A DNA stretch of 64,000 nucleotides from Bdellovibrionales bacterium (GCA_005801425.1 SYDY01000121.1:19722-83721), one strand, 5' to 3'. Numbered from the stretch's first letter, positions 18,323-57,610 are shown. Made by a program: numbers and translations. The notes: generated by a model not told the origin, from the letters alone.

Positions 18323-18389
18323 GAGAATTCCCCACCTGGCGGCCATGACACAACATGTCATGTATTCGCGCATGAATGCAAGATGTTCT

Positions 18390-33532: not shown

Positions 33533-33614
33533 GAAGTGCCCGTGGTAACCGATGCCATTCATAGGTGCAACCCTTACATCGATCACGTTTCTTCGGTGTG
33601 TTAGGTCGGCGACC

Positions 33615-34238
33615 ATGACGCGGGCATTGTTTTTTATCACTCAACTCTTCGTATTGACTGGCACAGCCCATGCTGCCGTACCTATCAAACAAGAACCACG
33701 TCGCTTCAATATTGCAGCCCATGGGGGATTTGCCTTTCATCCAAGCAGCGATCACAACGCACAAGGCTACGGCTTCGATGCCATGTTGCGCTACGACCGC
33801 GGCACATGGTGGGGCGCCGAAGTCGCGCGGATCGGCTGGGCAGGATTTGAATCCATCACCCAAGACCAAAGCGACAACACAACCCGCATTTTCAGTAGCC
33901 AAACCATTTTATTGGGCAGCGCTGCACGGGTTTTTGCGCCTGACCCATTTCGTCAAAAAGCGTGGGGATTTGCACCATGGGCATCCCTAGGCCCTACCCT
34001 ACAGGTGACGATAGAAGGCAAAGGATCGGTTCTACGCCAAGACAGCAATCTGCGCGCCGGAGAAACCTCTCAACGTGTCTTGGCCGGTCTCGCGGCCGAT
34101 GTGGCCTTAGGATTTGATTGGTTTATCGATGACAATGTGGCCCTGGCCGTAGAAAGTCGCATGGGCATGCCGCTCACATCCAGCGCACAGTGGATAGGCT
34201 TCGTGGGTGCGTTTGTGTCGTATAAGTTGGCGAATTAG
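33615..34238 (+). CDS. Putative small outer-membrane beta-barrel protein (OmpW/opacity-like) with signal peptide
   Basis: Signal MTRALFFITQLFVLTGTAHA, then alternating amphipathic strands rich in aromatic and Gly residues. The C-terminus ...VSYKLAN is not a canonical terminal Phe. Confidence 0.5.
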   Translation: MTRALFFITQLFVLTGTAHAAVPIKQEPRRFNIAAHGGFAFHPSSDHNAQGYGFDAMLRYDRGTWWGAEVARIGWAGFESITQDQSDNTTRIFSSQTILLGSAARVFAPDPFRQKAWGFAPWASLGPTLQVTIEGKGSVLRQDSNLRAGETSQRVLAGLAADVALGFDWFIDDNVALAVESRMGMPLTSSAQWIGFVGAFVSYKLAN

Positions 34239-44237: not shown

Positions 44238-45508
44238 CGCTCTTTTCTGCTGCCTATGATCGAACATTTCGTGGACCGTTGGCTGAACGCATGCGACCCA
44301 AATCGCTCGCCGATTATGTGGGCCAAGATCACATTGCGGGCAAAAGCAGCATGCTCATACGGATGCTCCAACGAGGACATTTGCCTTCGATGATCTTGTG
44401 GGGTCCCCCAGGAAGCGGAAAAACAACGCTGGCACAATGTTTGGCCGCCGATTTTAAAGCGATATTTGAATCGGTTTCTGCCGTACTAGCAGGCGTCAAA
44501 GAACTTCGTGAAGTCATCGAACGTGCCGGGCAACGTCGTGCGCAACGTGCAGAGCGAACATTGCTTTTTGTTGATGAAATTCATCGATTCAACAAAGCCC
44601 AACAAGATGCTTTGTTGCCCTATGTGGAATCGGGTCTTTTAACACTGATTGGTGCAACCACAGAAAACCCTTCGTTTGAAGTCAACAGTGCCTTGCTCTC
44701 GCGCTGTCGTGTTCTCGTGTTGAAACCACTGACCGGTGAGCAGCTGATCACCATTTTAAAACATGCATTGACTGATCGTGATCGCGGTTTAGGTGCTCTA
44801 CGATTAAATGCAGACAAAGCCACACTCGCTGCCATGGCCGCCGCAGCCCACGGTGATGCGCGACGTGCACTCACCACGCTTGAAATATCTGCCGATCTCG
44901 TTGACGATGGTGGGACGATTACACCCGCAGAAGTTGAACAAGCCATTCAAGATCGAACCATTCGCTATGACAAAGCGGGAGAAGAGCACTACAACGTCGT
45001 AAGTGCATTCATCAAAAGCATGCGTGGGTCGGATGCAAATGCCTCTATCTATTGGATGACCCGCATGCTCGAAGCGGGCGAGCCACCTCGTTTTATTCTG
45101 CGACGCATGGTCATTTTTGCGAGCGAAGATATCGGCAATGCTGATCCGCGAGCGCTTGAGGTGGCAATCAACGCACATCGTGCCTATGAATTTGTGGGCC
45201 TTCCAGAGGCTGCGTTGGCCATGAGCCAAGCTGCCGCGTATTTGGCGCACGCACCAAAATCCAATGCATCCATCATGGCCTACGTGGCCGCACGCAAGGA
45301 TGTGAAGCAATTGGGTGCACTTCCTGTCCCCATGAAACTTCGCAATGCAACAACCGGTTTGATGGCACATTTAGGTTATGGTGAAAACTACAAATATCCG
45401 CACAACTTTGAAAATCATTATGTTGAAGAGACATATCTGCCGGATGAGTTGATTGGGCGGGAATATTACAAACGGGACCCCCGCATTCGCGAGGATGACA
45501 CGACCTAA
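44228..45508 (+). CDS. rarA: Replication-associated recombination protein A (AAA+ ATPase)
   Basis: LWGPPGSGKTTLAQ Walker A, LLFVDEIHRFNK Walker B, MgsA C-terminal domain. Confidence 0.9.
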   Translation: MLVTLFSAAYDRTFRGPLAERMRPKSLADYVGQDHIAGKSSMLIRMLQRGHLPSMILWGPPGSGKTTLAQCLAADFKAIFESVSAVLAGVKELREVIERAGQRRAQRAERTLLFVDEIHRFNKAQQDALLPYVESGLLTLIGATTENPSFEVNSALLSRCRVLVLKPLTGEQLITILKHALTDRDRGLGALRLNADKATLAAMAAAAHGDARRALTTLEISADLVDDGGTITPAEVEQAIQDRTIRYDKAGEEHYNVVSAFIKSMRGSDANASIYWMTRMLEAGEPPRFILRRMVIFASEDIGNADPRALEVAINAHRAYEFVGLPEAALAMSQAAAYLAHAPKSNASIMAYVAARKDVKQLGALPVPMKLRNATTGLMAHLGYGENYKYPHNFENHYVEETYLPDELIGREYYKRDPRIREDDTT

Positions 45509-46131
45509 TGCACCCTCGCCGTAATTCCCTGCTGCATCATGATCTCACCTTCTGTGAGCAATAATTCATCAAGACGTGCTGCAATGATTTCTGGGGATGC
45601 CTCTTTGCATGCAAGACGCACAAAAAGTCGATAATGCCCAGCTTCTGCACGAGCAAGCCGTGAATAAAATGTGCGAAGCGACGGATCTTCCAAGTATTCG
45701 CCCAGTAAAAACAGCCGTTCCCAAGAACGTGCTTCGACAATGCCAACAATCAGAAGCCAGTCGATCTTACGCGCACTGGGATGGCCTTGTCGCCGAAGTT
45801 TCATCAACGCAACCACGTAAGGATCACCCCGGTCTGAACCAAGCATGGCACCACGTGCATGAAGCAAATCAACAACCTGTTGAAAATGTCGCAATTCCTC
45901 TTGCGCCAATCGTGCCATAGCCAACAAAAGATCTGTGTCTTCAGGATATGAACTGATCAAAGAGATCGCAGTCGCGGCCGCCTTGCGTTCGCAATGGGCA
46001 TGATCTTGTAACAATGCAATGAGATCGCTTTTGGCAACATCAACCCATATTCTAGGGGTAGGAACTTTAAGGATCTGATGCGGATGTTGCATTTCGGCAT
46101 CGATACGTTCAAGGGAAATGGCGACGCTCAT
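45505..46131 (-). CDS. Putative tRNA-(ms2io6A37)-hydroxylase MiaE-like ferritin-fold diiron protein
   Basis: HCERKAAATAISLI and EELRHF ... EARSWERL ... EAGHYRLF fit two E..H diiron motifs of the MiaE family. Moderate confidence. Confidence 0.5.
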   Translation of the reverse strand: MSVAISLERIDAEMQHPHQILKVPTPRIWVDVAKSDLIALLQDHAHCERKAAATAISLISSYPEDTDLLLAMARLAQEELRHFQQVVDLLHARGAMLGSDRGDPYVVALMKLRRQGHPSARKIDWLLIVGIVEARSWERLFLLGEYLEDPSLRTFYSRLARAEAGHYRLFVRLACKEASPEIIAARLDELLLTEGEIMMQQGITARVH

Positions 46132-48446
46132 ATATCCGCACCTATTTCAATTTCAATGGCTTGAAATCCTGCATCGCGAATAGCGCGTGCCACAGAGGAA
46201 GTGCCTTCTGGGCACACGGCGATCATCGATCCTCCACCCCCACCGCCGGTAAGTTTCGCACCTGTTGCACCGTGATTGCGCGCAAGATCAACAAGCATTT
46301 CAAGTTCAGGACAGGAAACCTGCAATGCATTCAAAAGGCCATGGTTAAGATTGAATAACAAACCCAGTTCTTGCCAATCGCCTTTTTTGAGTGCTTCAGC
46401 ACCCGCAAGAACCAAAGTATCAATGTCCTGGAAAATGCGTTGATACAAATGAGGAGACGCATCAAAACCTGCACGCACGCGTGCCACCATTTTTGCGGTC
46501 AGGCTTTGAACGCCCGTCATACCGATCACCAATGGTAAAGGCTCCCCAAGTGCAATATTTGTGATGATAGGAGCTTCACCTTTTTGAAACATCATCAAAC
46601 GGCCATAGGTGGCCATGGTGTTATCAATCCCCGATGCCGTGCCATGGGCGATGGTTTCCGACGCATAGGCCAAGGCATTGACGCGTTCATTTGAAAGACC
46701 TAGCGCAAAATACGTATCCAATGCGCGTACAACAGCAACAGCCAAGGCAGCTGAGCTACCAAGCCCTGCGGCACGTGGAATTTGTGGATCGATACGGATA
46801 ATCATATCGCGATCATTCAAACCAAGATCATCCAAAATGACCGAAAGACAATCTTCCAAAGAGCTTGCATTGGCTTGCTTTCGGACCACACGTTCGACAC
46901 CCCAGGTTGGGATCACAAGTCGTATGCCGGGTGTATCAGAAGCAAGAACGCGCGCACCCACGGCCAATGGAACAGGCGCTGCAATCGCATGGGTTCCATA
47001 CACCACCGCATGTTCACCAAGTAAAATCACTTTGCCCGCACCCGTACATTCGGGTGAAAAAGCAACCTGCGGCTCAGTATCGTACGTCGTAAGTTCGCGG
47101 ATAATTTCTTGGGCCTTCCACATTTTAACTTCACCACTGGCCACCAAGGATTTTACCACCTGTTCAAAAATAGCCGATGAAGCCCCTGCGGACGCCGCCA
47201 CACTGCGTGCATGCAAATTCATATGGCCACGCTGGATCCCATCGGTGACCAAGGCACGAAGTGCCGAAAAATTTTGTGCAAGTCCTGCTGCAACCATCAC
47301 TTCAGAGAGTTGCGCTGCGGAGGGTGTCCCCAAAATACGATGGGCAAGCGCTACCATGGGATTAGACTGTAAATTACCGCCCACAACACCCACTTTGATG
47401 GGCATTTTCAGACGGCCACGTAAATTGCCTTCGGCATCTTTCCACCATTGTGTAAGCGACGTGTAAGATCCGGTACGTGCAGCATAAGCATGAGCGCCTG
47501 CTTCCATGGAACGCCAATCGTTGCCTGTCGCGATGGCAACGGCATCAATGCCATTCATAATCCCTTTGTTGTGTGTTGCGGCTCTGTACGGATCGACCGC
47601 CGCAAAATCATTGGCCAGGATCACGCCATCACATACTTCTTCGCCGCTGTAGCCTTTGCCCTCAAGACTCCTCAATGAAAACACCACTTCAGCGCATGCA
47701 AGCGCGCGATCGGCGAGATTTGATAAGATCCGAAGAAAAGCTTTTCCACCAGTCAGTTCTTCCAAGAGCGGCGCCACTTCTTCACACATACTATTCACCA
47801 TATTGGCGCCCATGGCATCGCACGTATTCACCACCAGATGTATTACAAGCATTTCGGCTTTGGTGGTCGGTGCACGATGACGAACCACTTCGACATCAAG
47901 CGCCCCACCACCGCGGGCGACCATCCGAGGATGCAAGCTGTTGGCAAGCTCAAGGATCGTTTGACGTGCCGCCATCACCGCTTGGCGTGCTTTTGTAATG
48001 GATGGAACTTGGGTAATTTGCACTTGTCCCAAAAGAACAGATTCTGCTGGAATACAACGAAAGCCACCACCAGCACGTGCTGCTAACGCAGCAGAACTGA
48101 TGGCCGCAATGATCGACGGTTCTTCAACCACCATAGGAATAATGCGTTCTACATCGTTGATCACAAAATTAAGGCCCAAGCCCATCGGTAAGCCAAAAAC
48201 ACCGATGACGTTTTCAACCATTTTATCGGCATCGCGATCGGTCAAACGAAATCGTCCCGCCAACAATGCATCGCGATCGGTCGCGCTTAAAATATTTTTT
48301 TCAACAAGAATGCGAAGGCGATCCTGTCCTGAAAGTCTGTAAAATCCTGAAAGACGCGAGGTTACCACATCATGCTCCTGCAACAACCGAAACACCTGCT
48401 TGGGCCTTATGGAGATCCAAATCGACAAGATGATTTTCTTGGGCAA
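46128..48446 (-). CDS. Fused class II HMG-CoA reductase / mevalonate kinase
   Basis: The N-terminal ~430 aa have ENVIGVFGLPMGL, DAMGANMVN, TGNDWR and GIQRGHMNLHAR (class II HMGR). After a short linker (TYDTEPQVAFSPEC) the GHMP kinase begins: TGAGKVILLGEHAVVYG, PRAAGLGSSAA, KLTGGGGGGS. No stop separates the two halves. The track start at 48446 is TTG and overlaps the upstream PMK gene by 77 nt, so the true start is probably internal. Confidence 0.8.
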   Translation of the reverse strand: MPKKIILSIWISIRPKQVFRLLQEHDVVTSRLSGFYRLSGQDRLRILVEKNILSATDRDALLAGRFRLTDRDADKMVENVIGVFGLPMGLGLNFVINDVERIIPMVVEEPSIIAAISSAALAARAGGGFRCIPAESVLLGQVQITQVPSITKARQAVMAARQTILELANSLHPRMVARGGGALDVEVVRHRAPTTKAEMLVIHLVVNTCDAMGANMVNSMCEEVAPLLEELTGGKAFLRILSNLADRALACAEVVFSLRSLEGKGYSGEEVCDGVILANDFAAVDPYRAATHNKGIMNGIDAVAIATGNDWRSMEAGAHAYAARTGSYTSLTQWWKDAEGNLRGRLKMPIKVGVVGGNLQSNPMVALAHRILGTPSAAQLSEVMVAAGLAQNFSALRALVTDGIQRGHMNLHARSVAASAGASSAIFEQVVKSLVASGEVKMWKAQEIIRELTTYDTEPQVAFSPECTGAGKVILLGEHAVVYGTHAIAAPVPLAVGARVLASDTPGIRLVIPTWGVERVVRKQANASSLEDCLSVILDDLGLNDRDMIIRIDPQIPRAAGLGSSAALAVAVVRALDTYFALGLSNERVNALAYASETIAHGTASGIDNTMATYGRLMMFQKGEAPIITNIALGEPLPLVIGMTGVQSLTAKMVARVRAGFDASPHLYQRIFQDIDTLVLAGAEALKKGDWQELGLLFNLNHGLLNALQVSCPELEMLVDLARNHGATGAKLTGGGGGGSMIAVCPEGTSSVARAIRDAGFQAIEIEIGADI

Positions 48447-49419
48447 TCAAAATACGAAATTTATCGCAAGCATCGCGATCAGCAAACCACGCCATTCCGA
48501 GATCGCCCCCACCTGCGCCCGAAGGTTTATACACGCCACCACAATAATGGGCCAGCTTGCGTGCTCTTGCATGCCCTGGCGTTAGCATCGGTAAATCCAT
48601 CAGATCGCCTAGGCGACACAACATCGATGAATAGGAATCTACGATTGAAATAAAACGATTGATGTCGCCCTCGGCCCAAGCCGCCAGACCTTCTTCAGCA
48701 AGCGCACAGAGATCACGAACCACGGGCATCATCTGTTTAGGATTTTCGGAACATGCCCAATGAAATTTTTCGAGCCTGGTGGCTGTGTTGCTGCTTTCTT
48801 GGGGCCAGATATAAACCGCATGCAGGTTTTGAGGCCAAGCAAGATCGTCACTGATTGTCACGTCATCCCCATGCCATTGTACCGAACGTATGCCGCCGAA
48901 ATAGCTTGCAACAACGTCCATACCACTGCCACGATGATTTTGTTCTGCTTGGTGCAATGCAATCAATTGACGCCACGAGAACACGGGCGGTTCACGAACC
49001 GCCCCTACAGAAGAACCACAACAATCTGATTTTTTTTCACGAACCAACGCCCCTACATATTCTTCAACTGCTTTCGCGGTTGCGACCATCAATGCTGCGC
49101 TTGAACCAATGCCAAGCTTGATGCCCGTTTTGAGATCGGAAAACGCGGACGTGTCCACCGTAATCGCAGCATCGTGTAGATCCGGTGCACTCGCTTCAAT
49201 CACCCGACGAACAAATCCGAAATATGGATCTAACTCACTAAAAATATCTGGTGATGTTTTATGGCCCGAAGAAACACAAACATGTCCAGGATGCGTACAA
49301 ATCGTTGTTTCGGCAAATCGATCGACAGCCATCACAAGACCTGGTGCACCATGCAATACAGCATACTCCCCAAGAAGAACCACTTTCCCGGGTGCTCGCG
49401 CCGTCAACATGCGCTTCAC
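48370..49419 (-). CDS. Phosphomevalonate kinase (GHMP family) carrying an in-frame tandem REP-element insertion
   Basis: APGKVVLLGEYAVLHG, GIGSSAALMVA and GSGMDVVASYFGG motifs. Residues VGALVREKKSDCCGSSVGAVREPPVFSW are encoded by the REP copies at 48985-49062. Confidence 0.7.
   Translation of the reverse strand: MKRMLTARAPGKVVLLGEYAVLHGAPGLVMAVDRFAETTICTHPGHVCVSSGHKTSPDIFSELDPYFGFVRRVIEASAPDLHDAAITVDTSAFSDLKTGIKLGIGSSAALMVATAKAVEEYVGALVREKKSDCCGSSVGAVREPPVFSWRQLIALHQAEQNHRGSGMDVVASYFGGIRSVQWHGDDVTISDDLAWPQNLHAVYIWPQESSNTATRLEKFHWACSENPKQMMPVVRDLCALAEEGLAAWAEGDINRFISIVDSYSSMLCRLGDLMDLPMLTPGHARARKLAHYCGGVYKPSGAGGGDLGMAWFADRDACDKFRILIAQENHLVDLDLHKAQAGVSVVAGA
48985..49062 (+). repeat. REP-like element copy D plus a degenerate half-copy D', in frame inside the phosphomevalonate kinase gene
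   Basis: GGGCGGTTCACGAACCGCCC CTACAGAAGAACC at 48985-49017. TTCACGAACCAACGCCCCTACATATTC at 49036-49062. Confidence 0.85.
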
Positions 49420-50417
49420 TGAAGAACCTCATTGACCTGAACACCTGAGCCCAATCCCACAATTTGCACCGCTTCAACACCCGGTACAGATCGAAGATCT
49501 TCGGCAATACGTTCGGCGTCATCGCCCTGGCAAATGACTTTGACCTGCGGCCCTGCATCCATGGTAAAGCATGCAGCAATACCCGAGGCACGAAGCGCAC
49601 GAACACGATGCATCACTTCAACCGACGCACCATTCCAGTACAAAAGTCCGGGATCTGCCGCCAACATCACTGCATGCATTTTGAGGCAGCTTTGTTCGGT
49701 AACAGAGGCAAGTAAATCAAAATCACGCGTCGCAATCGCACCGCGCATAGCATCGAGATCCTGCGACGATGTTTCAACCCATGCAGGGTAATAAGGTGAT
49801 GTGGATGCTGTGAGTTCCATCCCTGCCGATGAAGATGTTATTTTACGATCCAAGCGCGTCATCACAACAACTATTTTTAATGGCCATTGATCGCCCGAAA
49901 GGAGTTGTTCAGCATAGGCACTCCGATTATCTCCTGGCGATCCCCTATGCATTTCAACAAAGCCACCAAAAATAGACCTCGCCGCCGAACCTGATCCGCG
50001 CCTGGCCAAGCATGTCAATTCACGGGGCGTAAGATTTAAATTTGCCGCCGTAGAGGCTGCCGAAGCCAGTGCTGCAAAACCCGAGGCAGAAGAGGCAAGA
50101 CCTACTGCAAGAGGAACAGTGCTTGTGCTCACCACATGGGCCGCATCACTTCGACCCGCAATCGTACGAACAAGATCCAGAAATTCTGTCACACGTGCGT
50201 ATTCACGCCCTTGTGCAGCAAGCCCATTGATTTCAACAATGTCGGGGCCTGATATACCTAAAAACGTCACCGCTGTTGTGCTGTTAAGCTTACCCAACGT
50301 GACCGAGATAGAACCAACAGCAGGAATATTCAGCGCAGCGTCACTCTTGCCCCAGTACTTCACGAGAGCAATATTGGCACCGGCCACCGCCTGCATCGTT
50401 TTACTTCTCAAATGCAC
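49416..50417 (-). CDS. mvaD: Diphosphomevalonate decarboxylase
   Basis: ANIALVKYWGK hallmark and the GHMP fold. Confidence 0.85.
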   Translation of the reverse strand: MHLRSKTMQAVAGANIALVKYWGKSDAALNIPAVGSISVTLGKLNSTTAVTFLGISGPDIVEINGLAAQGREYARVTEFLDLVRTIAGRSDAAHVVSTSTVPLAVGLASSASGFAALASAASTAANLNLTPRELTCLARRGSGSAARSIFGGFVEMHRGSPGDNRSAYAEQLLSGDQWPLKIVVVMTRLDRKITSSSAGMELTASTSPYYPAWVETSSQDLDAMRGAIATRDFDLLASVTEQSCLKMHAVMLAADPGLLYWNGASVEVMHRVRALRASGIAACFTMDAGPQVKVICQGDDAERIAEDLRSVPGVEAVQIVGLGSGVQVNEVLQ

Positions 50418-51190
50418 TGTGTTCGTCCTCCATCGACGGCTATTGATGTACCACGCATATAGGCGGCACTAGGGCTTGCAAGAAAAACAGCAAGTGCCGC
50501 AATTTCACGAGGTTCTGCCAAACGATGTTCGGGAACTGCAGCGGTCCATCCTGCAAGAATGGACTCGGGCGAAACATGGTTGTTCGTGGCAAGAGTGTCA
50601 CGAAGTTTTGTTAAACGATCGGTATTGGTGAACCCAGGCAAAATATTATTCACCGTGATCCCAGGAGGAAGTTCTTTGGACAATGTTTTTGACCAGCCTC
50701 CCATGGCCGCACGCACGGTATTGGATACGCCCAAATGGTGAATCGGTTCACGCACCGATGTCGATACAATGTTGATGATGCGGCCATAGCCCAGCCGCTC
50801 CATGCCAGGAACAAAATTTTGTGCCAGCACATGAGACGCCAACACGTGCTGCGTAAAAACGCGCATCATCGTGTTTGTTGTGGCCTTAAGCAACGGTCCT
50901 GGCTCAGGACCGCCCGAGTTGTTGATCAAAATATGCACATCACCCATACGAACAGAAATTTCTTCTGCAGCACGCGCCGTTGCATCCAGATCAGTAAGAT
51001 CGACCGAAACAGAAATTGCATCCACGCCTTTGGCATTAAGCGCACGTGTTGTTTCTTCAAGTGATTTTGGATCGCGACCAAGAATAGCCACGGAAACGCC
51101 TTCGTCCGCCAAGGCGTCGGCAATGGCCCGACCAATGCCACGACTTCCTCCGCACACCACAGCACGTTTTCCATGAAGACCTTCGGACAT
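50408..51190 (-). CDS. Short-chain dehydrogenase/reductase (SDR)
   Basis: Cofactor motif VVCGGSRGIGRAIA, NNSG, and the catalytic Y-x3-K region. Confidence 0.8.
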   Translation of the reverse strand: MSEGLHGKRAVVCGGSRGIGRAIADALADEGVSVAILGRDPKSLEETTRALNAKGVDAISVSVDLTDLDATARAAEEISVRMGDVHILINNSGGPEPGPLLKATTNTMMRVFTQHVLASHVLAQNFVPGMERLGYGRIINIVSTSVREPIHHLGVSNTVRAAMGGWSKTLSKELPPGITVNNILPGFTNTDRLTKLRDTLATNNHVSPESILAGWTAAVPEHRLAEPREIAALAVFLASPSAAYMRGTSIAVDGGRTQCI

Positions 51191-51191
51191 G

Positions 51192-52235
51192 TTACGCGTC
51201 TCCTTGAAATTCTCTCACCAGAACACTGGCATAGCCACCCGAAGGCAATGAAAAGCAAAGACGCAAATCCTCGCCGTCCATCGAAACATCAAGTTCTTCA
51301 GGAATAACAACATAGGGCCGACGTGTACCCTCTGCAATGGATCCAATGCGCGCAAACATGTCCACATCCATCCCAAAGCGTTCATAGACGGATGCTTCCT
51401 GTGCAGCAGTCTCCCCTTCGGTCATCAACATTTTGGGTCCAAGCATCGGGCCTGTCACACACAATTCACCTTGATCCAGACGGGTTTGATCATGCGCAGG
51501 ATCTTCACACAAAAATGCCGAACGGCCAGCATGACGTTGCAGAGCATCACCTGCCTGCACCACATTCAAAGTGCCTGCACGCATGCGTTCAGACAAACAA
51601 ACATTAAACAAAGCCGACTGAACCGATGAAATAGCCATGCGGTACTGGCGTTTGTCGGGATGACGTTTCGACGCGCCCTGAAGTGCAAGAAGCCCCTCCC
51701 GGATTGTATTGCCATCGTAACCAAACCGTTGCGAGCCATAAAAGTTAGGAAAACCCACCGTGCGTATATGTTGCGCGATCTCAGCGCAGCGCTGTTCCGC
51801 ATCCGCTCCCACGCCTCGCAACCAAAGAAGAAATCGATTGCCGCGAAGATGCCCTGTTTTCAATTTATTGCCATGACGCGCCCAGTGCAGAACTTTAAAT
51901 TTTTCGCCTGAAAAGTTCCAATCCATGTCCACTTTGTCGGCACGCACTGACACATATTGGCGCGTGATCCCTATTTTGTCTTTCATCCCTGCCACGCCCA
52001 GATCACGAACAGGAATGCCTGTATGGCGTGAAATTTCATCTAACAGAGAAGGCGTGGTGAGATTTTTCTTTTCAATCCAAAGATAAACATGGTCACCTTC
52101 GCCGCTGGGCTCATACGCAGGAATTTCTTCTACACAAAAATCTTCGTCGCCTGATTTAAAGATACCGCCACATCCAGGAATATGTGCGGACATACGTGGC
52201 ATCTTCGATGCTGCAAAAAAAAGGTCATTAATCAT
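51192..52235 (-). CDS. truD: tRNA pseudouridine(13) synthase
   Basis: TruD family motifs GVAGMKDKIGITRQ, FPNFYGSQRFG. Confidence 0.8.
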   Translation of the reverse strand: MINDLFFAASKMPRMSAHIPGCGGIFKSGDEDFCVEEIPAYEPSGEGDHVYLWIEKKNLTTPSLLDEISRHTGIPVRDLGVAGMKDKIGITRQYVSVRADKVDMDWNFSGEKFKVLHWARHGNKLKTGHLRGNRFLLWLRGVGADAEQRCAEIAQHIRTVGFPNFYGSQRFGYDGNTIREGLLALQGASKRHPDKRQYRMAISSVQSALFNVCLSERMRAGTLNVVQAGDALQRHAGRSAFLCEDPAHDQTRLDQGELCVTGPMLGPKMLMTEGETAAQEASVYERFGMDVDMFARIGSIAEGTRRPYVVIPEELDVSMDGEDLRLCFSLPSGGYASVLVREFQGDA

Positions 52236-52933
52236 TATTTTACTATCCCAACATAAAGATGTGCTGCACCAAAACTTAATCGCGAAAATTTAACATCACG
52301 AAGACCCGCACGGACCATCGAAGCAGCAAATACTTCTGGTGCAGGAAATTTCGCAACGGAGTCTTTAAGATACGTATATTCTGTCGACCGGCCTGCAAAA
52401 ATTCGTCCCAAGAGAGGAACCACACGGTGAACATACAGACGTGCAAAAAAGCCAAAGGGGCCAGTACTCGGCTCGCCCAATTCAAGCACCGCAACCCGAC
52501 CACCTGATTTTGTCACGCGGATCATTTCACGCAATCCCAGATCGCGATCAGGTACATTGCGAATGCCAAAGCTGATGCATGTCCCCGAAAATTGTTGGTC
52601 CACAAAGGGCAAAGCCTCGGCGCTTCCGCCCAGCAGTTCAATCCTTTGCTGCAATTGTGATGCAATAATTTTTTGGCGGCCGACGGCCAACATCGCATTG
52701 CTTGGATCCACACCCACCACCATGCTTTGTGGGATTGTCTGTGCAATCGCAAGCGCAACATCGGCAGTTCCTGTGGCCACATCAAGGACGCGATCACCTG
52801 GTTTAAGTTCCAACATCGCAATCAATTTTCGACGCCAACGTTGATCAAGGCCCAAGCTCATCATGCGATTCATGACGTCGTATTTAGGCGCGATTCTATC
52901 AAACATCGCGCCACTTCCCAAACGTGTTTCCAT
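52235..52933 (-). CDS. ubiE: Demethylmenaquinone/ubiquinone C-methyltransferase
   Basis: FDRIAPKYDVMNRMMSLGLDQRWRR and VLDVATGTADVA motif I. Confidence 0.85.
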   Translation of the reverse strand: METRLGSGAMFDRIAPKYDVMNRMMSLGLDQRWRRKLIAMLELKPGDRVLDVATGTADVALAIAQTIPQSMVVGVDPSNAMLAVGRQKIIASQLQQRIELLGGSAEALPFVDQQFSGTCISFGIRNVPDRDLGLREMIRVTKSGGRVAVLELGEPSTGPFGFFARLYVHRVVPLLGRIFAGRSTEYTYLKDSVAKFPAPEVFAASMVRAGLRDVKFSRLSFGAAHLYVGIVK

Positions 52934-52946
52934 ATTCAGTTCCTCG

Positions 52947-54047
52947 TTATCTTACGCGCTGCACAGATGCTTCTACCACGAAACGCAAAGGTTCTAGGGC
53001 ATCACTTGGTGGCAATCGATCAATGGCCAGCGTTGCTTCTTCGGCATAGCGCAAAGCCAATGCTTTGGTATCTTCAATCACTTCAAGTTTTTTTGCACGA
53101 ACCACAAGTTCATTCATTTCGGCGAGAGATGCATCTTGGGTGATCACATGACGCAGTTCAGCAAGCAAAGAGGGATCGCGTTCGGCGGCCAAGATCCATG
53201 GCCATGTCAACTTGCCCTCTTTTAAATCAACCAGAGGATCCTTGCCCAAAACGGCGGCATTTCCGTCCAAGTCAAGAAGATCATCCACCAATTGGAATGC
53301 CATCCCCAAACTGGTGCCCATGGTGCACAGTTCGGTTTCAATGCTTTTTTCTGCTGAAGCGACCCGAGCACCCGCACACAACGCCCATGAAAACAAACGT
53401 GCTGTTTTTCCACGAATAATTTCCAAATAAAGATCTTGGTTGGGAGAAAATGTCCCACGGCGTTCAAGCTGCAATGCTTCACCGGCAACCATGTCGCGCA
53501 GCGTATCCAACATATCGCATAACAGGTCAAAATGTCCTGTATTTGCAATAAAACGCAATGCAGTAACAAGAAGGTGATCACCGCCCAAAATACTGGCCGC
53601 ATTGCCGTAAATCACGCGCGATGCTGTCGCGCCTCGGCGTTCATCGGCATCATCGATCACATCATCATGAAGCAGTGTTGCGGCATGAACCAACTCTGCC
53701 GCAATGGCGAGATCATGGCGTTCAGGCGCGTTCTTGGTCCCAAGGCGAGCGCCCAGCAAAACACACAAAGCGCGCACACGCTTTCCTGGAAGTGAAAGCA
53801 ATTGCGCAGCAGCAGCCGAAACATGTTCAGATCGCGTTCCTGAAGCTCCTTCCAGTGCATCAATTTTTGATATCACTGTTTCGATCTCCGAGAGATCTGA
53901 AGCAAGCCAAAGTCTGATCTCTTCCAGTCGCGTGGAGGTATCCGTGCAACCATGACGCTCTGTCGTCAGCTGAAGTAGCGGCAAAACTTCCGATGCTGAC
54001 ACCGCTGTGGAATAACTGCTATGTTTCTGTATCACGATGCTCTCCAC
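52947..54047 (-). CDS. Polyprenyl diphosphate synthase (IspB-like; supplies the menaquinone side chain)
   Basis: First DDxxD LLHDDVIDDADERRG and second FQLVDDLLD. The start is uncertain because of the divergent neighbour. Confidence 0.85.
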   Translation of the reverse strand: MESIVIQKHSSYSTAVSASEVLPLLQLTTERHGCTDTSTRLEEIRLWLASDLSEIETVISKIDALEGASGTRSEHVSAAAAQLLSLPGKRVRALCVLLGARLGTKNAPERHDLAIAAELVHAATLLHDDVIDDADERRGATASRVIYGNAASILGGDHLLVTALRFIANTGHFDLLCDMLDTLRDMVAGEALQLERRGTFSPNQDLYLEIIRGKTARLFSWALCAGARVASAEKSIETELCTMGTSLGMAFQLVDDLLDLDGNAAVLGKDPLVDLKEGKLTWPWILAAERDPSLLAELRHVITQDASLAEMNELVVRAKKLEVIEDTKALALRYAEEATLAIDRLPPSDALEPLRFVVEASVQRVR

Positions 54048-55818
54048 GGAAGATCACAGGGGAATTCGCATGGTTTTTACCCATACGCTTACCGCGCGTT
54101 TGTTTGACATCGACCGCGCAGGTATTGTCTTTTTCGGTCGTTTTTTTGAATACTGCCAGGCCGCCCTCGAAGAGCTCACAACTCATATCTTTGGACGATC
54201 CGATGCCGGTTTCACTGCCGGGTGGGGCATGCCGGTCGTCCACACCGATGCCGACTACCGTGCTCCCACGCATATGGGTGATCGACTTCGTGTTGAGGTT
54301 CGCATCGAAAAGATCGGAACCAAATCCATCACATTTCAATATACCATCATGGGTGATGAGGATTGCGTCATCCGAGCGATCTGTCGCATCACGCATGTTT
54401 GCGTCGATCTTAAAACTTTCAAAAGCTGCACTGTTCCCGCTGCATTCGTCGATGCCATGCGACGCCACGGTATGTTGGATCCCCTGCCTTAAAGCAGATC
54501 GGTCTATTTTCCCCATGCGATTCATGGGAAATTCCAAACACACGATAAAGTGTTTGGGAACTTGGGTTGCAGGCAAATGCGCTTTGCACCAAGACCGTAC
54601 TTCGTTCACAGACAATTCGAACTCTGGTTTGGCAACAAGTGCAGCCAACAGCACTTGCCCCATGCAAGCATCATCCAATCCAACCACACACACGGAGGAT
54701 ACTCCGGGATGTTTCTCAAGAACACGTTCAATGGCCGATGGGCTTATATTTTCGCCGCCAGAAATAATCACATCATCACTGCGACCTTGAATTATCACGT
54801 GGCCATCGTGCACTGCACCGAGATCATGGGTTAAAAGTTCGTCTTGAAAACCAGGACCGTGCACCGCCAAATGCCCATCATGTGAAGTCACCTGACAAAA
54901 AGGCAAAGGCCATACATGCGCGTGGGGATCATCGGCAAATGATGTTGCGATTTGCGATCCTGCTTCGGTCATTCCCCATGACATCACAACAGGGATCTCA
55001 GCCGCACGCGCGCGTTGCAACAATGACTCTGGACATGCGGAACCGCCGATAAGTGCTGCACGCAATTTCGATTGCACCGGCAATCCTGGTTTTACATCAA
55101 GCAATTGATGCAGCATGGCGGGCACTAGGGATACAAGATGCACATCGCCTGTTTCGATTCGGGCATGGACCCTCGGTGCAGAAAACGGCAAACTCAGTTC
55201 AACGCACGTTGCGTACCACAAACAGCGCAAAAGCACCGCGATACCACCCACATGATCAAGCGGCAGACATAAAAGCCATGTGTCACTGGGCAAATGTCCC
55301 ATGCGGATCATGGAACCCATGGCAGAAAAAAACAGTGTTTGCGTGGTAAGGATCACCAAGCGATTGCGACCGGTGGTGCCTGATGTAAAAACGCCCACGC
55401 GGGGTGCATTCATGGGCCATGCTACCGCCTGGAACACCCCCACCGCCTCGCTATCGCTCAGCGACTCCCCAAAAGGGAGAGTGTTAGCGGCAAGATCAAC
55501 CGAACTCACCAGAAACGCTGCTTCTGATATTTTCAGCGCCTCTTGTATCTGAGACGAAGAAAAATCCCTGGGTGGGATCACAGCACACGCGCCAAGCCAG
55601 CCTATGGCGTGAAAATCGACGACCCAATCCATATCAAAGGGTCGATGCAGAAAAACACGGGACGTTTCGACAACACCTTGCGAGGCCATGAACGCTGCAC
55701 GTTGCATCACGCGATCGCGCAATTCACGATAAGTCCATTGTAATGCACCATCACGTAGCGCAATATGATCAACCCGCGTGTTTGCTGCCACGTCAAGAGG
55801 ATTGGGTAACTTACTCAT
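54019..55818 (-). CDS. menE: O-succinylbenzoate--CoA ligase (adenylate-forming); the ORF's last ~150 codons run antisense through the thioesterase gene
   Basis: AMP-binding motifs FTSGTTGRNRLV, the hinge region, and C-terminal MGKIDRSALRQG. No in-frame stop until 54019, so the 3' end is uncertain. Confidence 0.7.
   Translation of the reverse strand: MSKLPNPLDVAANTRVDHIALRDGALQWTYRELRDRVMQRAAFMASQGVVETSRVFLHRPFDMDWVVDFHAIGWLGACAVIPPRDFSSSQIQEALKISEAAFLVSSVDLAANTLPFGESLSDSEAVGVFQAVAWPMNAPRVGVFTSGTTGRNRLVILTTQTLFFSAMGSMIRMGHLPSDTWLLCLPLDHVGGIAVLLRCLWYATCVELSLPFSAPRVHARIETGDVHLVSLVPAMLHQLLDVKPGLPVQSKLRAALIGGSACPESLLQRARAAEIPVVMSWGMTEAGSQIATSFADDPHAHVWPLPFCQVTSHDGHLAVHGPGFQDELLTHDLGAVHDGHVIIQGRSDDVIISGGENISPSAIERVLEKHPGVSSVCVVGLDDACMGQVLLAALVAKPEFELSVNEVRSWCKAHLPATQVPKHFIVCLEFPMNRMGKIDRSALRQGIQHTVASHGIDECSGNSAAFESFKIDANMRDATDRSDDAILITHDGILKCDGFGSDLFDANLNTKSITHMRGSTVVGIGVDDRHAPPGSETGIGSSKDMSCELFEGGLAVFKKTTEKDNTCAVDVKQTRGKRMGKNHANSPVIFRGEHRDTET
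54070..54492 (+). CDS. Hotdog-fold acyl-CoA thioesterase (4HBT/YbgC family), probably 1,4-dihydroxy-2-naphthoyl-CoA hydrolase of the menaquinone pathway
   Basis: ARLFDIDRAGIVFFGRFFEYCQAALEEL and VVHTDADYRAPTHMGDRLRVEVRIEKIGTKSITFQY match the 4HBT core. It lies inside the men cluster. Confidence 0.7.
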   Translation: MVFTHTLTARLFDIDRAGIVFFGRFFEYCQAALEELTTHIFGRSDAGFTAGWGMPVVHTDADYRAPTHMGDRLRVEVRIEKIGTKSITFQYTIMGDEDCVIRAICRITHVCVDLKTFKSCTVPAAFVDAMRRHGMLDPLP

Positions 55819-56780
55819 CCAACCCTCTCTATGGGATCGAATGGTGTGTACAAACTTTCCACATCAAGCATGCCATCAACCACCAAAGGACTTACTTGAG
55901 GGATCTCCAACAAGGGCCCCAAAAATCCACAAGGCAAGAGGGGAACATCAAGAGAAGCGGCAACACAAGCCGCAGCATGACGACCGATACTCGACTCAAG
56001 TGCATGGGTGATCGTAATTTCAAAACCTGCAGCAATGGCCTTTCGCGCCATGTCTGTTGTGACCGACAAACCGCCTAAAAACATGGGTTTAAGCACAATG
56101 ACATCCGCCGCACCCATTTCCAGTAATCGCAAAAATCCACCCGGTGTCACCACAGATTCATCGGCCGCAATTTTCATATCCACGCGCTCGCGGAGCCATC
56201 GCATGCCTGCGAGATCATCATGGGCGACCGGTTGTTCTGCAAGCGCAATATTCGCGGTATCAAACGTTCGCAAGGCATGCAGCGCCTCCTCGGCCGTCCA
56301 CACACCATTGGCATCAACCCAAAGTGCAACGTCATTGCCAAGGGCTTCGCGTAAGGCATGAAGCAATCGTGCATCTTCATCGAGTGCACCGCGACCTACT
56401 TTGATTTTAAACGTTCGGATCCCTTGGCTGTAAGCAATCAATGCTTCGTCAACTGAGGAAACCAGTGCGTGAACAGGAACCAACGTTTTATCGGGCGGTT
56501 CACGAACCGCCCCTACAAGAGAACACCTGAGAGAAAGTTCTAAAAACGCTGTTTCTACCGCAAAATCCCATGCCTTCGCCCCATCGCCAAACCCTGGCCA
56601 GGGTGCCGATTCACCAACACCAATATCTCCGTCTTCATTTTCAAGACGCAACCATACACCCCGGCGCATTATCTTTTCAGATAAATGCTGCTCATAGGGA
56701 TGCAAAGTCGCGCGTGAAATTTTCACAGAAGTGCTCCTGCCGTCAGCAATAGGGAAAAACGCACCATCATACGTGGGCAT
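55815..56780 (-). CDS. menC: o-succinylbenzoate synthase (enolase superfamily), carrying an in-frame REP insertion
   Basis: Enolase-superfamily metal ligands (KIKVG ... WVDANG ... DESV). Position in the men operon supports the call. Residues LVGAVREPP are encoded by the REP copy at 56493-56524. Confidence 0.7.
   Translation of the reverse strand: MPTYDGAFFPIADGRSTSVKISRATLHPYEQHLSEKIMRRGVWLRLENEDGDIGVGESAPWPGFGDGAKAWDFAVETAFLELSLRCSLVGAVREPPDKTLVPVHALVSSVDEALIAYSQGIRTFKIKVGRGALDEDARLLHALREALGNDVALWVDANGVWTAEEALHALRTFDTANIALAEQPVAHDDLAGMRWLRERVDMKIAADESVVTPGGFLRLLEMGAADVIVLKPMFLGGLSVTTDMARKAIAAGFEITITHALESSIGRHAAACVAASLDVPLLPCGFLGPLLEIPQVSPLVVDGMLDVESLYTPFDPIERVG
56493..56524 (+). repeat. REP-like element copy E (GGGCGGTTCACGAACCGCCC + CTACAAGAGAAC), in frame inside menC
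   Basis: Seen directly. Confidence 0.85.
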
Positions 56781-57610
56781 TCAGAAAAAGAGGCGTTAAG
56801 CGCGGCACCCGACGATTGATTGATTTTTTGAATCAAACGGATTGTAGGGATTAGCAATACGGTAGGAAGTGCCCATTCCCATCGGTGCGTTTGCACAGCC
56901 AATGCAACAATCAACAACAACGGAAGAATCAGCAACATAGCGATGAGACGACGCTGCCATGAAACGCCAAACCGCACCGCCAATGTGCGCTTGCCTGCAG
57001 CGGCATCGCTTGTTACATCACGAAGATTATTCAGTCCCAAAATGGCTGCGGCATAGTACCCAAGCGCAAATCCTGCGACCCATGCCTCTTGCGATACCCA
57101 TCCTGTATGCAAAAAATAAGCACCGCACACCGCCACAGGACCAAAGAATAAAAACGCAACGCATTCACCAAGGCCATGGTAAGCAAGCGGCCAGGGGCCA
57201 CCGGTATAGGCAATTGCCGTGATGGCAGACACCACGCCAATAGCACAAATAATCCATCCGCCGTACCAGACAAGCCACCCACCACAGAGCGCTGCTATCA
57301 ACAGACTGATCAACGTGCCCACGTGCAATTGTGACGGAGTCAACCATCCCATGCTTGCGGCACGCGGGGGCCCTAAACGCTGATCCTGCTTGTCGGTTCC
57401 GCGTTCAAAATCAGCAGCATCGTTGTGCAAATTGGTTGCGATTTGCAAACACAATGTGGTCACCAAAGTCACGCCAAAAACGAGAAGTGAAGCATGCTTT
57501 TTCGCCGATGCAAGCACAAACGCCACCACAACGGGCGCTGCACCGATCACCAACGTAGGAAGGCGCATGGCCAAAAGCCATGCTCTTGTTTGCGTGTTGA
57601 CACTCATCAA
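56723..57610 (-). CDS. menA: 1,4-dihydroxy-2-naphthoate polyprenyltransferase (UbiA family)
   Basis: Multi-TM UbiA-type protein with [15 protein letters not shown] (the NDxxD-like Asp-rich motif). Confidence 0.8.

What the first reader, a model, noticed from the sequence alone, without database searches (positions are those of the whole stretch)
46128..49419. Compact mevalonate operon with a fused HMG-CoA reductase / mevalonate kinase gene and overlapping downstream ORFs
Class II HMGR (ENVIG, DAMGANM, GIQRGHMNLHAR) continues without a stop into a complete mevalonate kinase (GKVILLGEHAVVYG, GLGSSAA, KLTGGGGGG). As far as I know the bifunctional arrangement is not the common one for bacterial mevalonate-pathway operons, where mvaA and mvk are separate. 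Upstream lie phosphomevalonate kinase and diphosphomevalonate decarboxylase with 4-nt and 77-nt overlaps. The true start of the fusion protein is probably internal to the track ORF. An SDR, truD and a miaE-like gene follow with no gaps, suggesting one long transcript. No mvaS or idi is present in the window.
Basis: partly seen in the sequence, partly recalled or inferred. Interest (0 to 1): 0.5.

Follow-up and report, generated by a model that had tools for sequence, protein, structure and literature searches.

The report
Natural HMG-CoA reductase–mevalonate kinase fusion gene
One gene in an uncultured myxobacterium really does encode two consecutive mevalonate-pathway enzymes as a single protein, but the same fusion is already present, under an incomplete name, in hundreds of database sequences from at least five bacterial phyla, so it is real and uncharacterised rather than rare.

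Summary
The fused ORF is real. Minus-strand gene 46128-48368 (746 aa, GTG start) encodes a complete class II HMG-CoA reductase followed by a complete mevalonate kinase. Both score above curated cut-offs and keep their catalytic residues. They are joined by a short, poorly conserved linker. It is not an assembly artefact: more than 120 database clusters at 55-60% identity share the architecture. They come from Gammaproteobacteria, Calditrichota, Acidobacteriota, Ignavibacteriota-type MAGs and a syntenic Myxococcota contig, and include a cultured Halomonadaceae RefSeq protein.

The gene order mvd-pmk-hmgr::mvk is conserved. The closest unfused relative has the same order, with hmgr and mvk overlapping as ATGA, so one frame change fuses them. 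Relatives also carry PMK-HMGR-MVK and HMGR-MVK-IDI triple fusions.

- The 77-nt overlap is a longest-ORF artefact. The start lies 1 nt after the pmk stop, behind an AGGAG.
- SDR and truD lie upstream, not downstream.
- The array is a 14-gene, 16-kb menaquinone + mevalonate + tRNA-modification cluster.

His replaces the NADH-determining Asp146, so the "degradative" database name is probably wrong. I found no paper or solved structure for the fusion. Modest interest.

The parts
46128..48368 (-). hmgr::mvk fusion gene, 746 aa plus stop (GTG start at 48368; stop 46130-46128)
   Evidence: Identical to database protein P0001. Pfam and NCBIfam domains. Homologue N-termini align to this start.
47085..48368 (-). 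Class II HMG-CoA reductase domain (residues 1-428), including the C-terminal flap subdomain
   Evidence: Aligns end to end with solved class II HMGRs: 6dio, E=4e-116, residues 3-426 to chain 4-425; 1qax, E=7e-113. E83, K267, N271, D283 and H381 are conserved. Asp146 is replaced by His and Leu148 by Arg.
47061..47084 (-). Interdomain linker (residues 429-436; the variable stretch reaches to about residue 444)
   Evidence: pLDDT is below 50 in the AlphaFold2 model. This is the only length- and sequence-variable stretch in alignments A1 and A2. There is no stop, ATG or Shine-Dalgarno-like sequence in the DNA.
46131..47060 (-). Mevalonate kinase domain (residues 437-746)
   Evidence: TIGR00549: 251.5 bits, cut-off 163. 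Solved MVKs 2hfs (E=1e-44) and 6mde (E=2e-40). Motifs GKVILLGEHAVVYG, GLGSSAA, SGIDN and KLTGGGGGG are intact.
48375..48379 (-). AGGAG Shine-Dalgarno-like sequence, 6 nt upstream of the GTG start and inside the end of pmk
   Evidence: Read directly from the sequence.
48370..49419 (-). Divergent GHMP kinase, probable phosphomevalonate kinase (349 aa)
   Evidence: Best NCBIfam hit is TIGR01220 PMK at 66.5 bits, below the cut-off of 165.7. It sits between mvd and hmgr::mvk in every relative examined. Its homologue is fused to the N-terminus of HMGR-MVK in P0054.
49416..50417 (-). Diphosphomevalonate decarboxylase (333 aa)
   Evidence: TIGR01240: 273 bits, cut-off 171. Pfam MVD-like_N and MDD_C.
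50408..51190 (-). Short-chain dehydrogenase/reductase (260 aa), role unknown. It overlaps mvd by 10 nt.
   Evidence: Pfam adh_short. The TruD-SDR pair also lies upstream of mvd in the syntenic Myxococcota contig L016, but not in other phyla.
51192..52235 (-). tRNA pseudouridine(13) synthase TruD (347 aa)
   Evidence: Pfam TruD, 236 bits.
45505..46131 (-). MiaE, tRNA ms2io6A hydroxylase (208 aa). Last gene of the array; 4-nt overlap with the fusion's stop.
   Evidence: Pfam MiaE, 160 bits. In relatives a type-1 IPP isomerase occupies this slot.
52235..54047 (-). UbiE/MenG methyltransferase (52235-52933) and long-chain polyprenyl diphosphate synthase (52947-54047)
   Evidence: Pfam and NCBIfam.
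54019..61698 (-). Menaquinone genes: menE (54019-55818), menC (55815-56780), menA (56723-57610), menB (57607-58443), menD (58424-60148), menF (60133-61698)
   Evidence: Pfam AMP-binding, MR_MLE_C, UbiA, ECH_1, TPP_enzyme and Chorismate_bind. The men names are inferred from these domain families and the gene order. The gene calls on the identical contig L001 agree.
61699..61774 (.). 76-nt intergenic region between menF and divergent rpsD (61775-62488, +). Only plausible place for the array's promoter.
   Evidence: rpsD from Pfam. A weak sigma-70-like match lies at 61767-61738 (-), but such matches are no commoner than chance in this region.

Best explanation
Gene 46128-48368 encodes a genuine bifunctional enzyme. 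The N-terminal class II HMG-CoA reductase reduces HMG-CoA to mevalonate, probably using NADPH. The C-terminal GHMP-family mevalonate kinase phosphorylates that mevalonate with ATP. The two domains are joined by a flexible linker of about 8-16 residues attached to the end of the reductase's mobile flap subdomain.

Together with the probable phosphomevalonate kinase and the diphosphomevalonate decarboxylase encoded just upstream, it forms the lower half of a classical biosynthetic mevalonate pathway. In this uncultured Myxococcota bacterium the pathway genes are packed into one 14-gene co-directional array with menaquinone biosynthesis, a polyprenyl diphosphate synthase, truD and miaE. I infer that the pathway feeds IPP into the menaquinone side chain and other isoprenoids.

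The fusion arose from an mvd-pmk-hmgr-mvk-idi operon in which the hmgr stop and mvk start overlapped, through loss of the stop or a frame change.

Shown: domain content, intact catalytic residues, conserved architecture, conserved synteny, and the split ancestral-type arrangement.
Inferred: both activities, NADPH preference, co-transcription, and any kinetic benefit (1:1 stoichiometry, trapping mevalonate so that the reversible class II reductase runs in the synthetic direction).
For: 1. Both domains exceed the curated equivalog cut-offs: TIGR00532 at 363 vs 260 and TIGR00549 at 251.5 vs 163.
2. The HMGR part aligns over the whole length of solved class II enzymes. E83, K267, N271, D283 and H381 are conserved.
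3. The MVK part aligns over the whole length of solved MVKs. The phosphate-binding and catalytic motifs are conserved.
4. All 120 best homologue clusters share the three Pfam domains. All but one are 743-780 aa; the exception is a 1131-aa triple fusion. They include RefSeq WP_189470949.1 from a cultured Halomonadaceae.
5. The fusion appears in MAGs of Acidobacteriota, Calditrichota and Pseudomonadota and in a syntenic Myxococcota contig from a different sample.
6. In alignments of 12 and 42 fusions, conservation runs through both domains. Only the linker varies in length and sequence.
7. The AlphaFold2 model has mean pLDDT 82. The interdomain linker, residues 429-436, is the longest segment below 50; three 3-5-residue loops also fall below 50.
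8. mvd-pmk-hmgr::mvk order is conserved in 8 loci from three phyla.
9. The closest unfused HMGR (L017) has mvd-pmk-hmgr-mvk-idi, with hmgr and mvk overlapping as ATGA.
10. The residue equivalent to the NADH-determining Asp146 is His, invariant in 42 fusions. PMC12292504 reports Asp at this position in NADH-dependent class II HMGRs and Tyr or His in NADPH-dependent ones.
11. An AGGAG lies 6 nt before the GTG start, and the pmk stop is 1 nt before it.
Against: - No activity, transcript or protein data exist for this or any HMGR-MVK fusion that I could find.
- The upstream kinase is called PMK only by best sub-threshold hit, position and elimination (66.5 bits against a cut-off of 165.7).
- The window holds no HMG-CoA synthase, thiolase or IPP isomerase, so pathway completeness in this genome is unproven.
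- The cofactor inference rests on one position.
- The promoter and terminator scans carry no signal above chance, so a single transcript is inferred from spacing alone.
- The two assemblies that contain the identical sequence (L001, L002) may derive from the same reads.
Confidence: 0.85

Rival explanations
1. The fusion is an artefact. A sequencing or assembly error removed a stop codon or shifted the frame between two separate genes, hmgr and mvk.
For: The closest unfused relative has hmgr and mvk overlapping by 4 nt (ATGA), so a single-base error could fuse them. The window comes from a metagenome assembly. The two identical copies (L001, L002) may share reads.
Against: More than 120 independent clusters at 55-60% identity have the same uninterrupted architecture. 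They come from many samples, assemblers and phyla, and include an isolate genome. The linker here is in frame and continuous with conserved sequence on both sides. 18 representatives at the 50%-identity level have the same HMGR-then-MVK order.
Confidence: 0.02
2. The reductase works in the catabolic direction, as its database name "degradative" implies. It would oxidise mevalonate to HMG-CoA as in Pseudomonas mevalonii, and the cluster would serve mevalonate utilisation.
For: The best NCBIfam model is TIGR00532, named "degradative". The closest solved structures are the P. mevalonii, Delftia and Burkholderia-type enzymes.
Against: - It is fused to a kinase that consumes mevalonate.
- It is flanked by PMK, MVD, a polyprenyl diphosphate synthase and menaquinone genes.
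- No HMG-CoA lyase is in the window.
- The NADH-determining Asp146 is replaced by His, as in NADPH-dependent biosynthetic class II enzymes.
- Relatives add IPP isomerase and, in L017, HMG-CoA synthase to the same cluster.
Confidence: 0.04
3. Only one domain is catalytically active. The other has become a regulatory or scaffolding module, for example a mevalonate or diphosphomevalonate sensor.
For: Nothing specific. This is a general possibility for fused paralogous GHMP domains. A second GHMP kinase lies next door.
Against: All catalytic and ligand-binding motifs of both domains are conserved here and invariant across 42 fusions. No other MVK candidate is in the cluster. The neighbouring GHMP kinase scores slightly better as PMK (66.5 vs 64.9 bits), both far below the cut-offs.
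Confidence: 0.05
4. The ORF is translated as a fusion but yields two separate enzymes, through proteolytic cleavage in the linker or internal initiation. In that case the fusion has no functional consequence beyond co-expression.
For: The linker is short, variable and predicted to be disordered.
Against: The linker DNA contains no ATG and no Shine-Dalgarno-like sequence. The only in-frame GTG lies inside the conserved GKVILLGEH motif. Persistence of the fused state across five phyla, and its extension to triple fusions, suggests the covalent link is tolerated or selected.
Confidence: 0.04

Closest known systems
Class II HMG-CoA reductases with solved structures (Pseudomonas mevalonii 1qax/4i4b; 6dio; 6p7k; Streptococcus pneumoniae 5wpj, organism as listed in PMC12292504)
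   Same: Full-length alignment: residues 3-426 of the fusion to 4-425 of the chain, E=1e-113 to 1e-116. The catalytic residues Glu83, Lys267, Asp283 and His381 are the same, and the C-terminal flap subdomain is present.
   Different: Those enzymes are stand-alone proteins of about 428 aa. Here the flap's C-terminus continues into a kinase. Asp146 is His and Leu148 is Arg, unlike the NADH-dependent P. mevalonii enzyme.
Stand-alone GHMP-family mevalonate kinases (2hfs, 6mde, 4hac, 8teb, 2x7i)
   Same: The whole domain aligns (E=1e-44 to 1e-31). It has the conserved N-terminal Lys/Glu/His motif, the GLGSSAA phosphate loop, the catalytic Asp in SGIDN and the Gly-rich motif 3.
   Different: It has no start codon of its own. 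The 10-15 residue N-terminal leader of free MVKs has become the linker (compare L017).
Unfused mvd-pmk-hmgr-mvk-idi operon of NCBI assembly GCA_000381645.1 (L017, HMGR P0264)
   Same: Same gene order and tight coupling. The HMGR is about 52% identical and the MVK 41% identical.
   Different: There, hmgr ends in a TGA that overlaps the mvk ATG (ATGA). That cluster also contains idi, HMG-CoA synthase and hopanoid-type genes, none of which are in this window.
MvaE of Enterococcus faecalis (acetoacetyl-CoA thiolase fused to HMG-CoA reductase; PDB 7m1z chain named acetyl-CoA C-acetyltransferase)
   Same: It is a natural bifunctional mevalonate-pathway protein containing a class II HMGR. That it is the textbook precedent for such fusions is from general knowledge.
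   Different: In MvaE the partner is N-terminal and catalyses a non-adjacent step. Here the partner is C-terminal and catalyses the very next step. No thiolase domain is present.
Database HMGR-MVK fusions (e.g. WP_189470949.1 Halomonas/Litchfieldella qijiaojingensis; HGY56346.1 Caldithrix abyssi MAG; P0059 Myxococcota contig)
   Same: Same two-enzyme architecture and length, 55-60% identity over 96% of the protein, and the same mvd-pmk upstream context.
   Different: This copy has the shortest linker of the 12 sequences aligned. It is followed by miaE instead of idi, and it is embedded behind a menaquinone operon.

Membership tests
Class II (bacterial-type) HMG-CoA reductase, TIGR00532 / PF00368 | Profile score above the curated cut-off over the full profile length | tested here: met
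   TIGR00532: 363.2 bits against a cut-off of 259.95, profile positions 19-395 of 395. PF00368: 340.6 bits.
Class II (bacterial-type) HMG-CoA reductase, TIGR00532 / PF00368 | Catalytic Glu83, Lys267, Asp283 and His381 (P. mevalonii numbering) and a C-terminal flap subdomain | tested here: met
   All four residues, plus Asn271, are identical in the pairwise alignment to 1qax. The alignment runs to chain residue 423 of 428. Residue roles are as listed in PMC12292504.
"Degradative", NAD(H)-dependent subgroup of class II HMGR (the name databases give this protein) | Asp at position 146, which contacts the adenosine ribose 2'-OH in NADH-dependent enzymes | tested here: not met
   His aligns with Asp146 and Arg with Leu148. 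The His is invariant in 42 fusions (H146 in A2). PMC12292504 reports Tyr or His here in NADPH-dependent class II enzymes.
Class II HMG-CoA reductase | HMG-CoA reductase activity and cofactor use | not testable with these tools
   Needs an enzyme assay.
Mevalonate kinase, TIGR00549 (GHMP superfamily) | Profile score above the curated cut-off; GHMP N and C domains | tested here: met
   TIGR00549: 251.5 bits against a cut-off of 163.05, profile positions 3-275 of 276. PF00288 and PF08544 are both above their cut-offs.
Mevalonate kinase, TIGR00549 (GHMP superfamily) | Conserved N-terminal Lys/Glu/His motif, GLGSSAA loop, catalytic Asp and Gly-rich motif 3 | tested here: met
   GKVILLGEHAVVYG, GLGSSAA, SGIDN and KLTGGGGGG align with the same motifs of solved MVKs and are invariant among the fusions. 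The roles of these residues are taken from general knowledge of rat and archaeal MVK.
HMGR-MVK fusion proteins in public databases | A single polypeptide with HMGR N-terminal, MVK C-terminal and a short linker, alignable end to end | tested here: met
   55-60% identity over 96-97% of the query to 119 clusters. 18 HMGR-then-MVK representatives at the 50%-identity level.
MvaE-type thiolase-HMGR fusion | Thiolase domain N-terminal to the HMGR | tested here: not met
   No thiolase family hit. The 26 residues upstream of the GTG in the longest ORF overlap pmk and have no counterpart at homologue N-termini.
Phosphomevalonate kinase, GHMP type (TIGR01220), for the upstream gene 48370-49419 | Profile score above the curated cut-off | tested here: not met
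   66.5 bits against a cut-off of 165.7. It is the best-scoring family, narrowly ahead of MVK at 64.9 bits. Orthologues in L016 and L017 behave the same way, at 92-94 bits. The assignment rests on conserved position and on the pathway's need for a PMK.
Diphosphomevalonate decarboxylase, TIGR01240, for gene 49416-50417 | Profile score above the curated cut-off | tested here: met
   273 bits against a cut-off of 171.35. The phosphomevalonate decarboxylase model NF040704 scores only 163 against 475.
Single operon (one transcript) | Co-directional genes with overlapping or near-touching ends | tested here: met
   14 genes from 61698 to 45505, all on the minus strand. Junctions range from a 20-nt overlap to a 13-nt gap. 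The array is bounded by divergent rpsD and convergent rarA.
Single operon (one transcript) | Demonstrated read-through transcript | not testable with these tools
   Consensus promoter and terminator scans are at or below chance. RNA-seq is needed.

The most novel reading that the evidence does not exclude
HMGR-MVK would be one stage of a collinear, stepwise fusion series (pmk | hmgr | mvk | idi) that yields true multi-enzyme mevalonate-pathway proteins. Because the kinase hangs directly on the reductase's mobile catalytic flap, flap opening (product release) would be coupled to mevalonate capture and phosphorylation. That amounts to substrate channelling that makes an otherwise reversible class II reductase effectively unidirectional. 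On this reading the family is a natural template for engineered pathways, and it is a reason many genomes are wrongly scored as lacking mvk.
Probability: 0.2. Interest if true: 0.55.

Novelty: new member of a known kind. Interest (0 to 1): 0.3.

Why it matters
1. Annotation. Databases name these proteins only "hydroxymethylglutaryl-CoA reductase, degradative". The kinase half is therefore invisible to name-based pathway reconstruction, and the reductase is given a catabolic label that the His146 substitution and the gene context contradict. Surveys of mevalonate versus MEP pathway distribution could score such genomes as lacking mvk.

2. Enzymology and engineering. Two consecutive steps, including the rate-limiting one, are covalently linked in nature. 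Natural triple fusions also exist (PMK-HMGR-MVK and HMGR-MVK-IDI). No structure or paper on any of them was found. They are ready-made test cases for channelling and for compact pathway design.

3. Evolution. The split (ATGA-overlap), double and triple forms in the same gene order give a clear picture of how operon neighbours become multidomain enzymes.

None of this is surprising in kind, so the interest is modest.

Tried and rejected
- Literature. Six of the seven full-text searches targeted the fusion: HMGR/MVK "fusion", "fused", "bifunctional", hyphenated names, domain phrases, Calditrichaeota and Gammaproteobacteria. None found a paper on a natural HMGR-MVK fusion. A 2026 review of bacterial isoprenoid pathway diversity notes IspDF fusions but nothing for HmgR or Mvk. 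Hoshino & Gaucher 2018 say only that fused partner sequences were trimmed. A 2026 HMGR preprint uses "fusion" only for MBP tags. Miller & Kung 2018 (PMC6170158) is not held. Absence from this library does not prove the fusion is undescribed.
- Source genome. The genome-contig scan did not return the window's own genome, so mvaS, idi, thiolase or a MEP pathway elsewhere in the genome could not be checked. Taxonomy was inferred instead from the SctV gene's nearest named homologues.
- Single origin of the fusion. A crude neighbour-joining tree of 121 HMGR domains (no support values, midpoint root) puts most fusions together. Five fall among stand-alone enzymes, and one protein has the reverse order, MVK-HMGR (P0265). 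I do not claim single or multiple origins.
- Promoter and terminator consensus scans gave counts at or below chance and were not used as evidence.
- I considered that the 26 extra N-terminal residues of the longest ORF might be real. I rejected this because they overlap pmk, have no counterpart in homologues, and a better start with an AGGAG exists.
- I considered internal initiation of a separate MVK. No start or Shine-Dalgarno-like sequence is present.
- The SDR as a pathway enzyme. It is conserved only with truD in the two Myxococcota loci and is absent from clusters in other phyla. No role is assigned.
- I did not run a fold search on the model, because sequence-level matches to solved structures were already decisive.

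Full report
**What is in the sequence.** All genes of the finding lie on the minus strand. The longest ORF, 46128-48446 (772 aa), contains Pfam HMG-CoA_red (residues 43-413, 340.6 bits) followed by GHMP_kinases_N and GHMP_kinases_C (534-758). Two NCBIfam equivalog models pass their curated cut-offs on the same polypeptide:
- TIGR00532, class II HMG-CoA reductase: 363 bits against 260.
- TIGR00549, mevalonate kinase: 251.5 bits against 163.

The DNA across the junction has no stop, no ATG and no Shine-Dalgarno-like sequence. The core observation is therefore correct.

**True gene boundaries.** A database protein identical to the ORF (P0001) is 746 aa. It starts at GTG 48368. The sequence there reads AGGAG-catgat-GTG, and the TGA inside "catgat" is the stop of the upstream kinase gene (48372-48370). 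The two genes are thus separated by 1 nt, and the ribosome-binding site lies inside the end of pmk. Homologue N-termini (M..SRIP.FYKLS) align with VVTSRLSGFYRLS at this start. The 3' end overlaps the miaE start by 4 nt.

**Integrity of the two halves.**
- The reductase half aligns end to end with solved class II enzymes: 6dio at E=4e-116 and P. mevalonii 1qax at E=7e-113, query residues 3-424/426 to chain 4-423/425. This includes the C-terminal flap subdomain of about 50 residues.
- Counting along the 1qax alignment, Glu83, Lys267, Asn271, Asp283 and His381 are all conserved. These are the catalytic residues listed in PMC12292504.
- The residue aligned with Asp146 is His, and Leu148 is Arg. 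The His is invariant in 42 fusion proteins.
- PMC12292504 reports that NADH-dependent class II enzymes have Asp at this position and NADPH-dependent ones have Tyr or His. It also reports that replacing the Asp raises NADPH use 54-fold. I therefore predict NADPH use, or dual use, and regard the database label "degradative" as a naming carry-over from TIGR00532.
- The kinase half aligns over its whole length with solved mevalonate kinases (2hfs at 1e-44; 6mde/4hac at about 2e-40) and keeps GKVILLGEHAVVYG, GLGSSAA, SGIDN and KLTGGGGGG.
- No PDB chain contains both domains.
- An AlphaFold2 model built on 42 fusions has mean pLDDT 82. It shows two well-folded halves. The interdomain linker, residues 429-436, is the longest stretch below pLDDT 50; three short 3-5-residue loops within the domains also fall below 50. 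pTM is 0.53, as expected when the relative domain orientation is undefined.

**Not an artefact, and not rare.**
- All 120 best clusters returned for the protein (55-60% identity, 96-97% coverage) carry the same three Pfam domains. All are 743-780 aa, except one of 1131 aa.
- Named sources include Gammaproteobacteria (Wenzhouxiangellaceae, Rhodanobacteraceae, Nevskiaceae, Oleiagrimonas), Calditrichota/Caldithrix, Melioribacteraceae, and the cultured Halomonas/Litchfieldella qijiaojingensis (WP_189470949.1).
- A genome scan adds Acidobacteriota/Holophagae, Calditrichia and Pseudomonadota MAGs.
- Among 1.84 billion 50%-identity representatives, 18 of the top 150 are HMGR-then-MVK two-domain proteins and one has the reverse order.
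- In alignments the two enzyme parts are conserved throughout. Only the 12-30-residue linker varies, and this window has the shortest one among the 12 sequences aligned.

**Context and origin.**
- tblastn with the window's proteins shows mvd-pmk-hmgr::mvk conserved in eight loci from three phyla.
- In Acidobacteriota, Calditrichia and Myxococcota relatives the next gene is a NUDIX protein. It passes the curated cut-offs for type-1 IPP isomerase.
- The window's organism is an uncultured Myxococcota. Its SctV gene is 79-83% identical to its nearest homologues, and those that carry a name are "Myxococcota/Myxococcales bacterium" MAG proteins.
- A contig from another sample (L016) is syntenic: truD-SDR-(APS kinase)-mvd-pmk-hmgr::mvk-idi ... 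rarA-thiI-OTCase-recJ. The window has miaE where that relative has idi.
- The closest stand-alone HMGR (P0264, 52% identity) lies in an operon mvd-pmk-hmgr-mvk-idi-...-HMG-CoA synthase. There the hmgr TGA overlaps the mvk ATG (ATGA), and the MVK has a 15-residue leader before GKVIL. A single frame change there would produce exactly the fused form, with the leader becoming the linker.
- Further collinear fusions exist: PMK-HMGR-MVK (P0054, 1131 aa) and HMGR-MVK-IDI (P0244 and P0245, 952 and 928 aa). HMGR is also fused to polyprenyl synthase and squalene/phytoene synthase domains in other lineages.

**The operon.** From menF (61698) to miaE (45505), fourteen genes run on the minus strand. Junctions range from a 20-nt overlap to a 13-nt gap. 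The order is menF, menD, menB, menA, menC, menE, a long-chain polyprenyl diphosphate synthase, ubiE/menG, truD, an SDR, mvd, pmk, hmgr::mvk, miaE. The men names are inferred from Pfam domain families and gene order.
- The array is bounded by divergent rpsD (61775-62488) and convergent rarA (44228-45508).
- Co-transcription is inferred from spacing only. Consensus promoter and terminator scans are uninformative.
- The grouping makes biochemical sense: IPP synthesis, then the prenyl chain, then menaquinone. MiaE acts on an isopentenylated tRNA base. The link to the men genes is not conserved in L016.

**What is missing or weak.**
- No HMG-CoA synthase, thiolase or IPP isomerase domain was found among the ORFs scanned, which cover every non-nested ORF of 180 aa or more and most of those of 120-180 aa. 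In myxobacteria mvaS is known to lie apart from the other pathway genes (from memory, not tested here). The rest of the genome could not be reached.
- The gene called pmk is a divergent GHMP kinase. Its best family is PMK but far below the cut-off (66.5 against 165.7), as for its orthologues. The assignment rests on conserved position, its fusion to HMGR-MVK in P0054, and the need of a bona fide diphosphomevalonate decarboxylase (273 bits against 171) for its product.

**Mechanism (inferred).** The protein most likely makes mevalonate 5-phosphate from HMG-CoA using 2 NADPH and ATP. Fusion guarantees equal amounts of the two activities and places the kinase next to the site where mevalonate leaves. 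Class II reductases are readily reversible; the P. mevalonii enzyme works oxidatively, and PMC12292504 assays both directions. Immediate phosphorylation would therefore pull the reaction toward synthesis. Because the kinase is tethered to the end of the mobile flap that carries His381, some mechanical or kinetic coupling is conceivable, but nothing here shows it.

**Comparison and novelty.** Both halves are ordinary members of well-known families. The fused architecture is common in public sequence data but carries an incomplete and probably misleading name. I found no paper and no structure on it. I file this copy as a new member (at most 60% identity to anything else) of a database-visible, experimentally uncharacterised fusion family. 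Interest is modest, at 0.3. The value lies in correcting annotation, in a ready-made natural model for enzyme fusion and channelling in the mevalonate pathway, and in a tidy evolutionary series from overlapping genes to double and triple fusions.

Noticed in passing
window 4726-7176 (+), 3731-4576 (-), 24949-27096 (+): An 816-aa protein has an IpgD-type phosphoinositide phosphatase domain (59 bits). A MORN-repeat protein lies next to it, and a type III secretion SctV gene lies about 18 kb away. Together they suggest a T3SS effector in an uncultured Myxococcota.
   Followed up: partly
window 54019-54510 (-): MenE is 599 aa. Its last 160 or so residues, beyond the AMP-binding domains, match no Pfam family. 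No menH or DHNA-CoA thioesterase gene was recognised in the array.
   Followed up: partly
P0054; P0244, P0245; P0265 (relatives, not in the window): Collinear higher-order fusions exist: PMK-HMGR-MVK (1131 aa), HMGR-MVK-NUDIX/IDI (952 and 928 aa), and one reverse-order MVK-HMGR protein (704 aa).
   Followed up: partly
P0303, P0288, P0285, P0280 (relatives): Class II HMGR is also fused C-terminally to polyprenyl synthase plus squalene/phytoene synthase, or to NAD-dependent epimerase-type domains. 43 of 95 full-length HMGR representatives without an MVK domain are longer than 470 aa.
   Followed up: partly
L017 2961-10758 (NCBI GCA_000381645.1, KB906774.1): This is the unfused version of the cluster. 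hmgr and mvk overlap as ATGA. The cluster is flanked by hopanoid-type genes (SQS/PSY, PNP_UDP, epimerase, radical SAM), a type-1 IDI and HMG-CoA synthase.
   Followed up: yes
window 45505-46131 (-) versus L016 12290-12850: In the syntenic Myxococcota contig a type-1 IPP isomerase follows the fusion. In the window miaE occupies that slot and no IDI is present in the 64 kb. It is unclear where this organism makes DMAPP.
   Followed up: partly
window 50408-52235 (-) and L016 5105-7029: A truD-SDR gene pair sits immediately upstream of mvd in both Myxococcota loci but not in other phyla. The SDR's function is unknown.
   Followed up: partly
window 7501-8292, 9160-10248, 10116-10967, 33552-34238, 34328-35338 (+), 17924-18403 (-): Six sizeable ORFs (159-362 aa) have no significant Pfam family, even at E=0.05.
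   Followed up: no
window 20157-21842 (-): An ABC1/UbiB-type atypical kinase (561 aa) occurs in an organism whose quinone genes in this window are of the menaquinone type.
   Followed up: no
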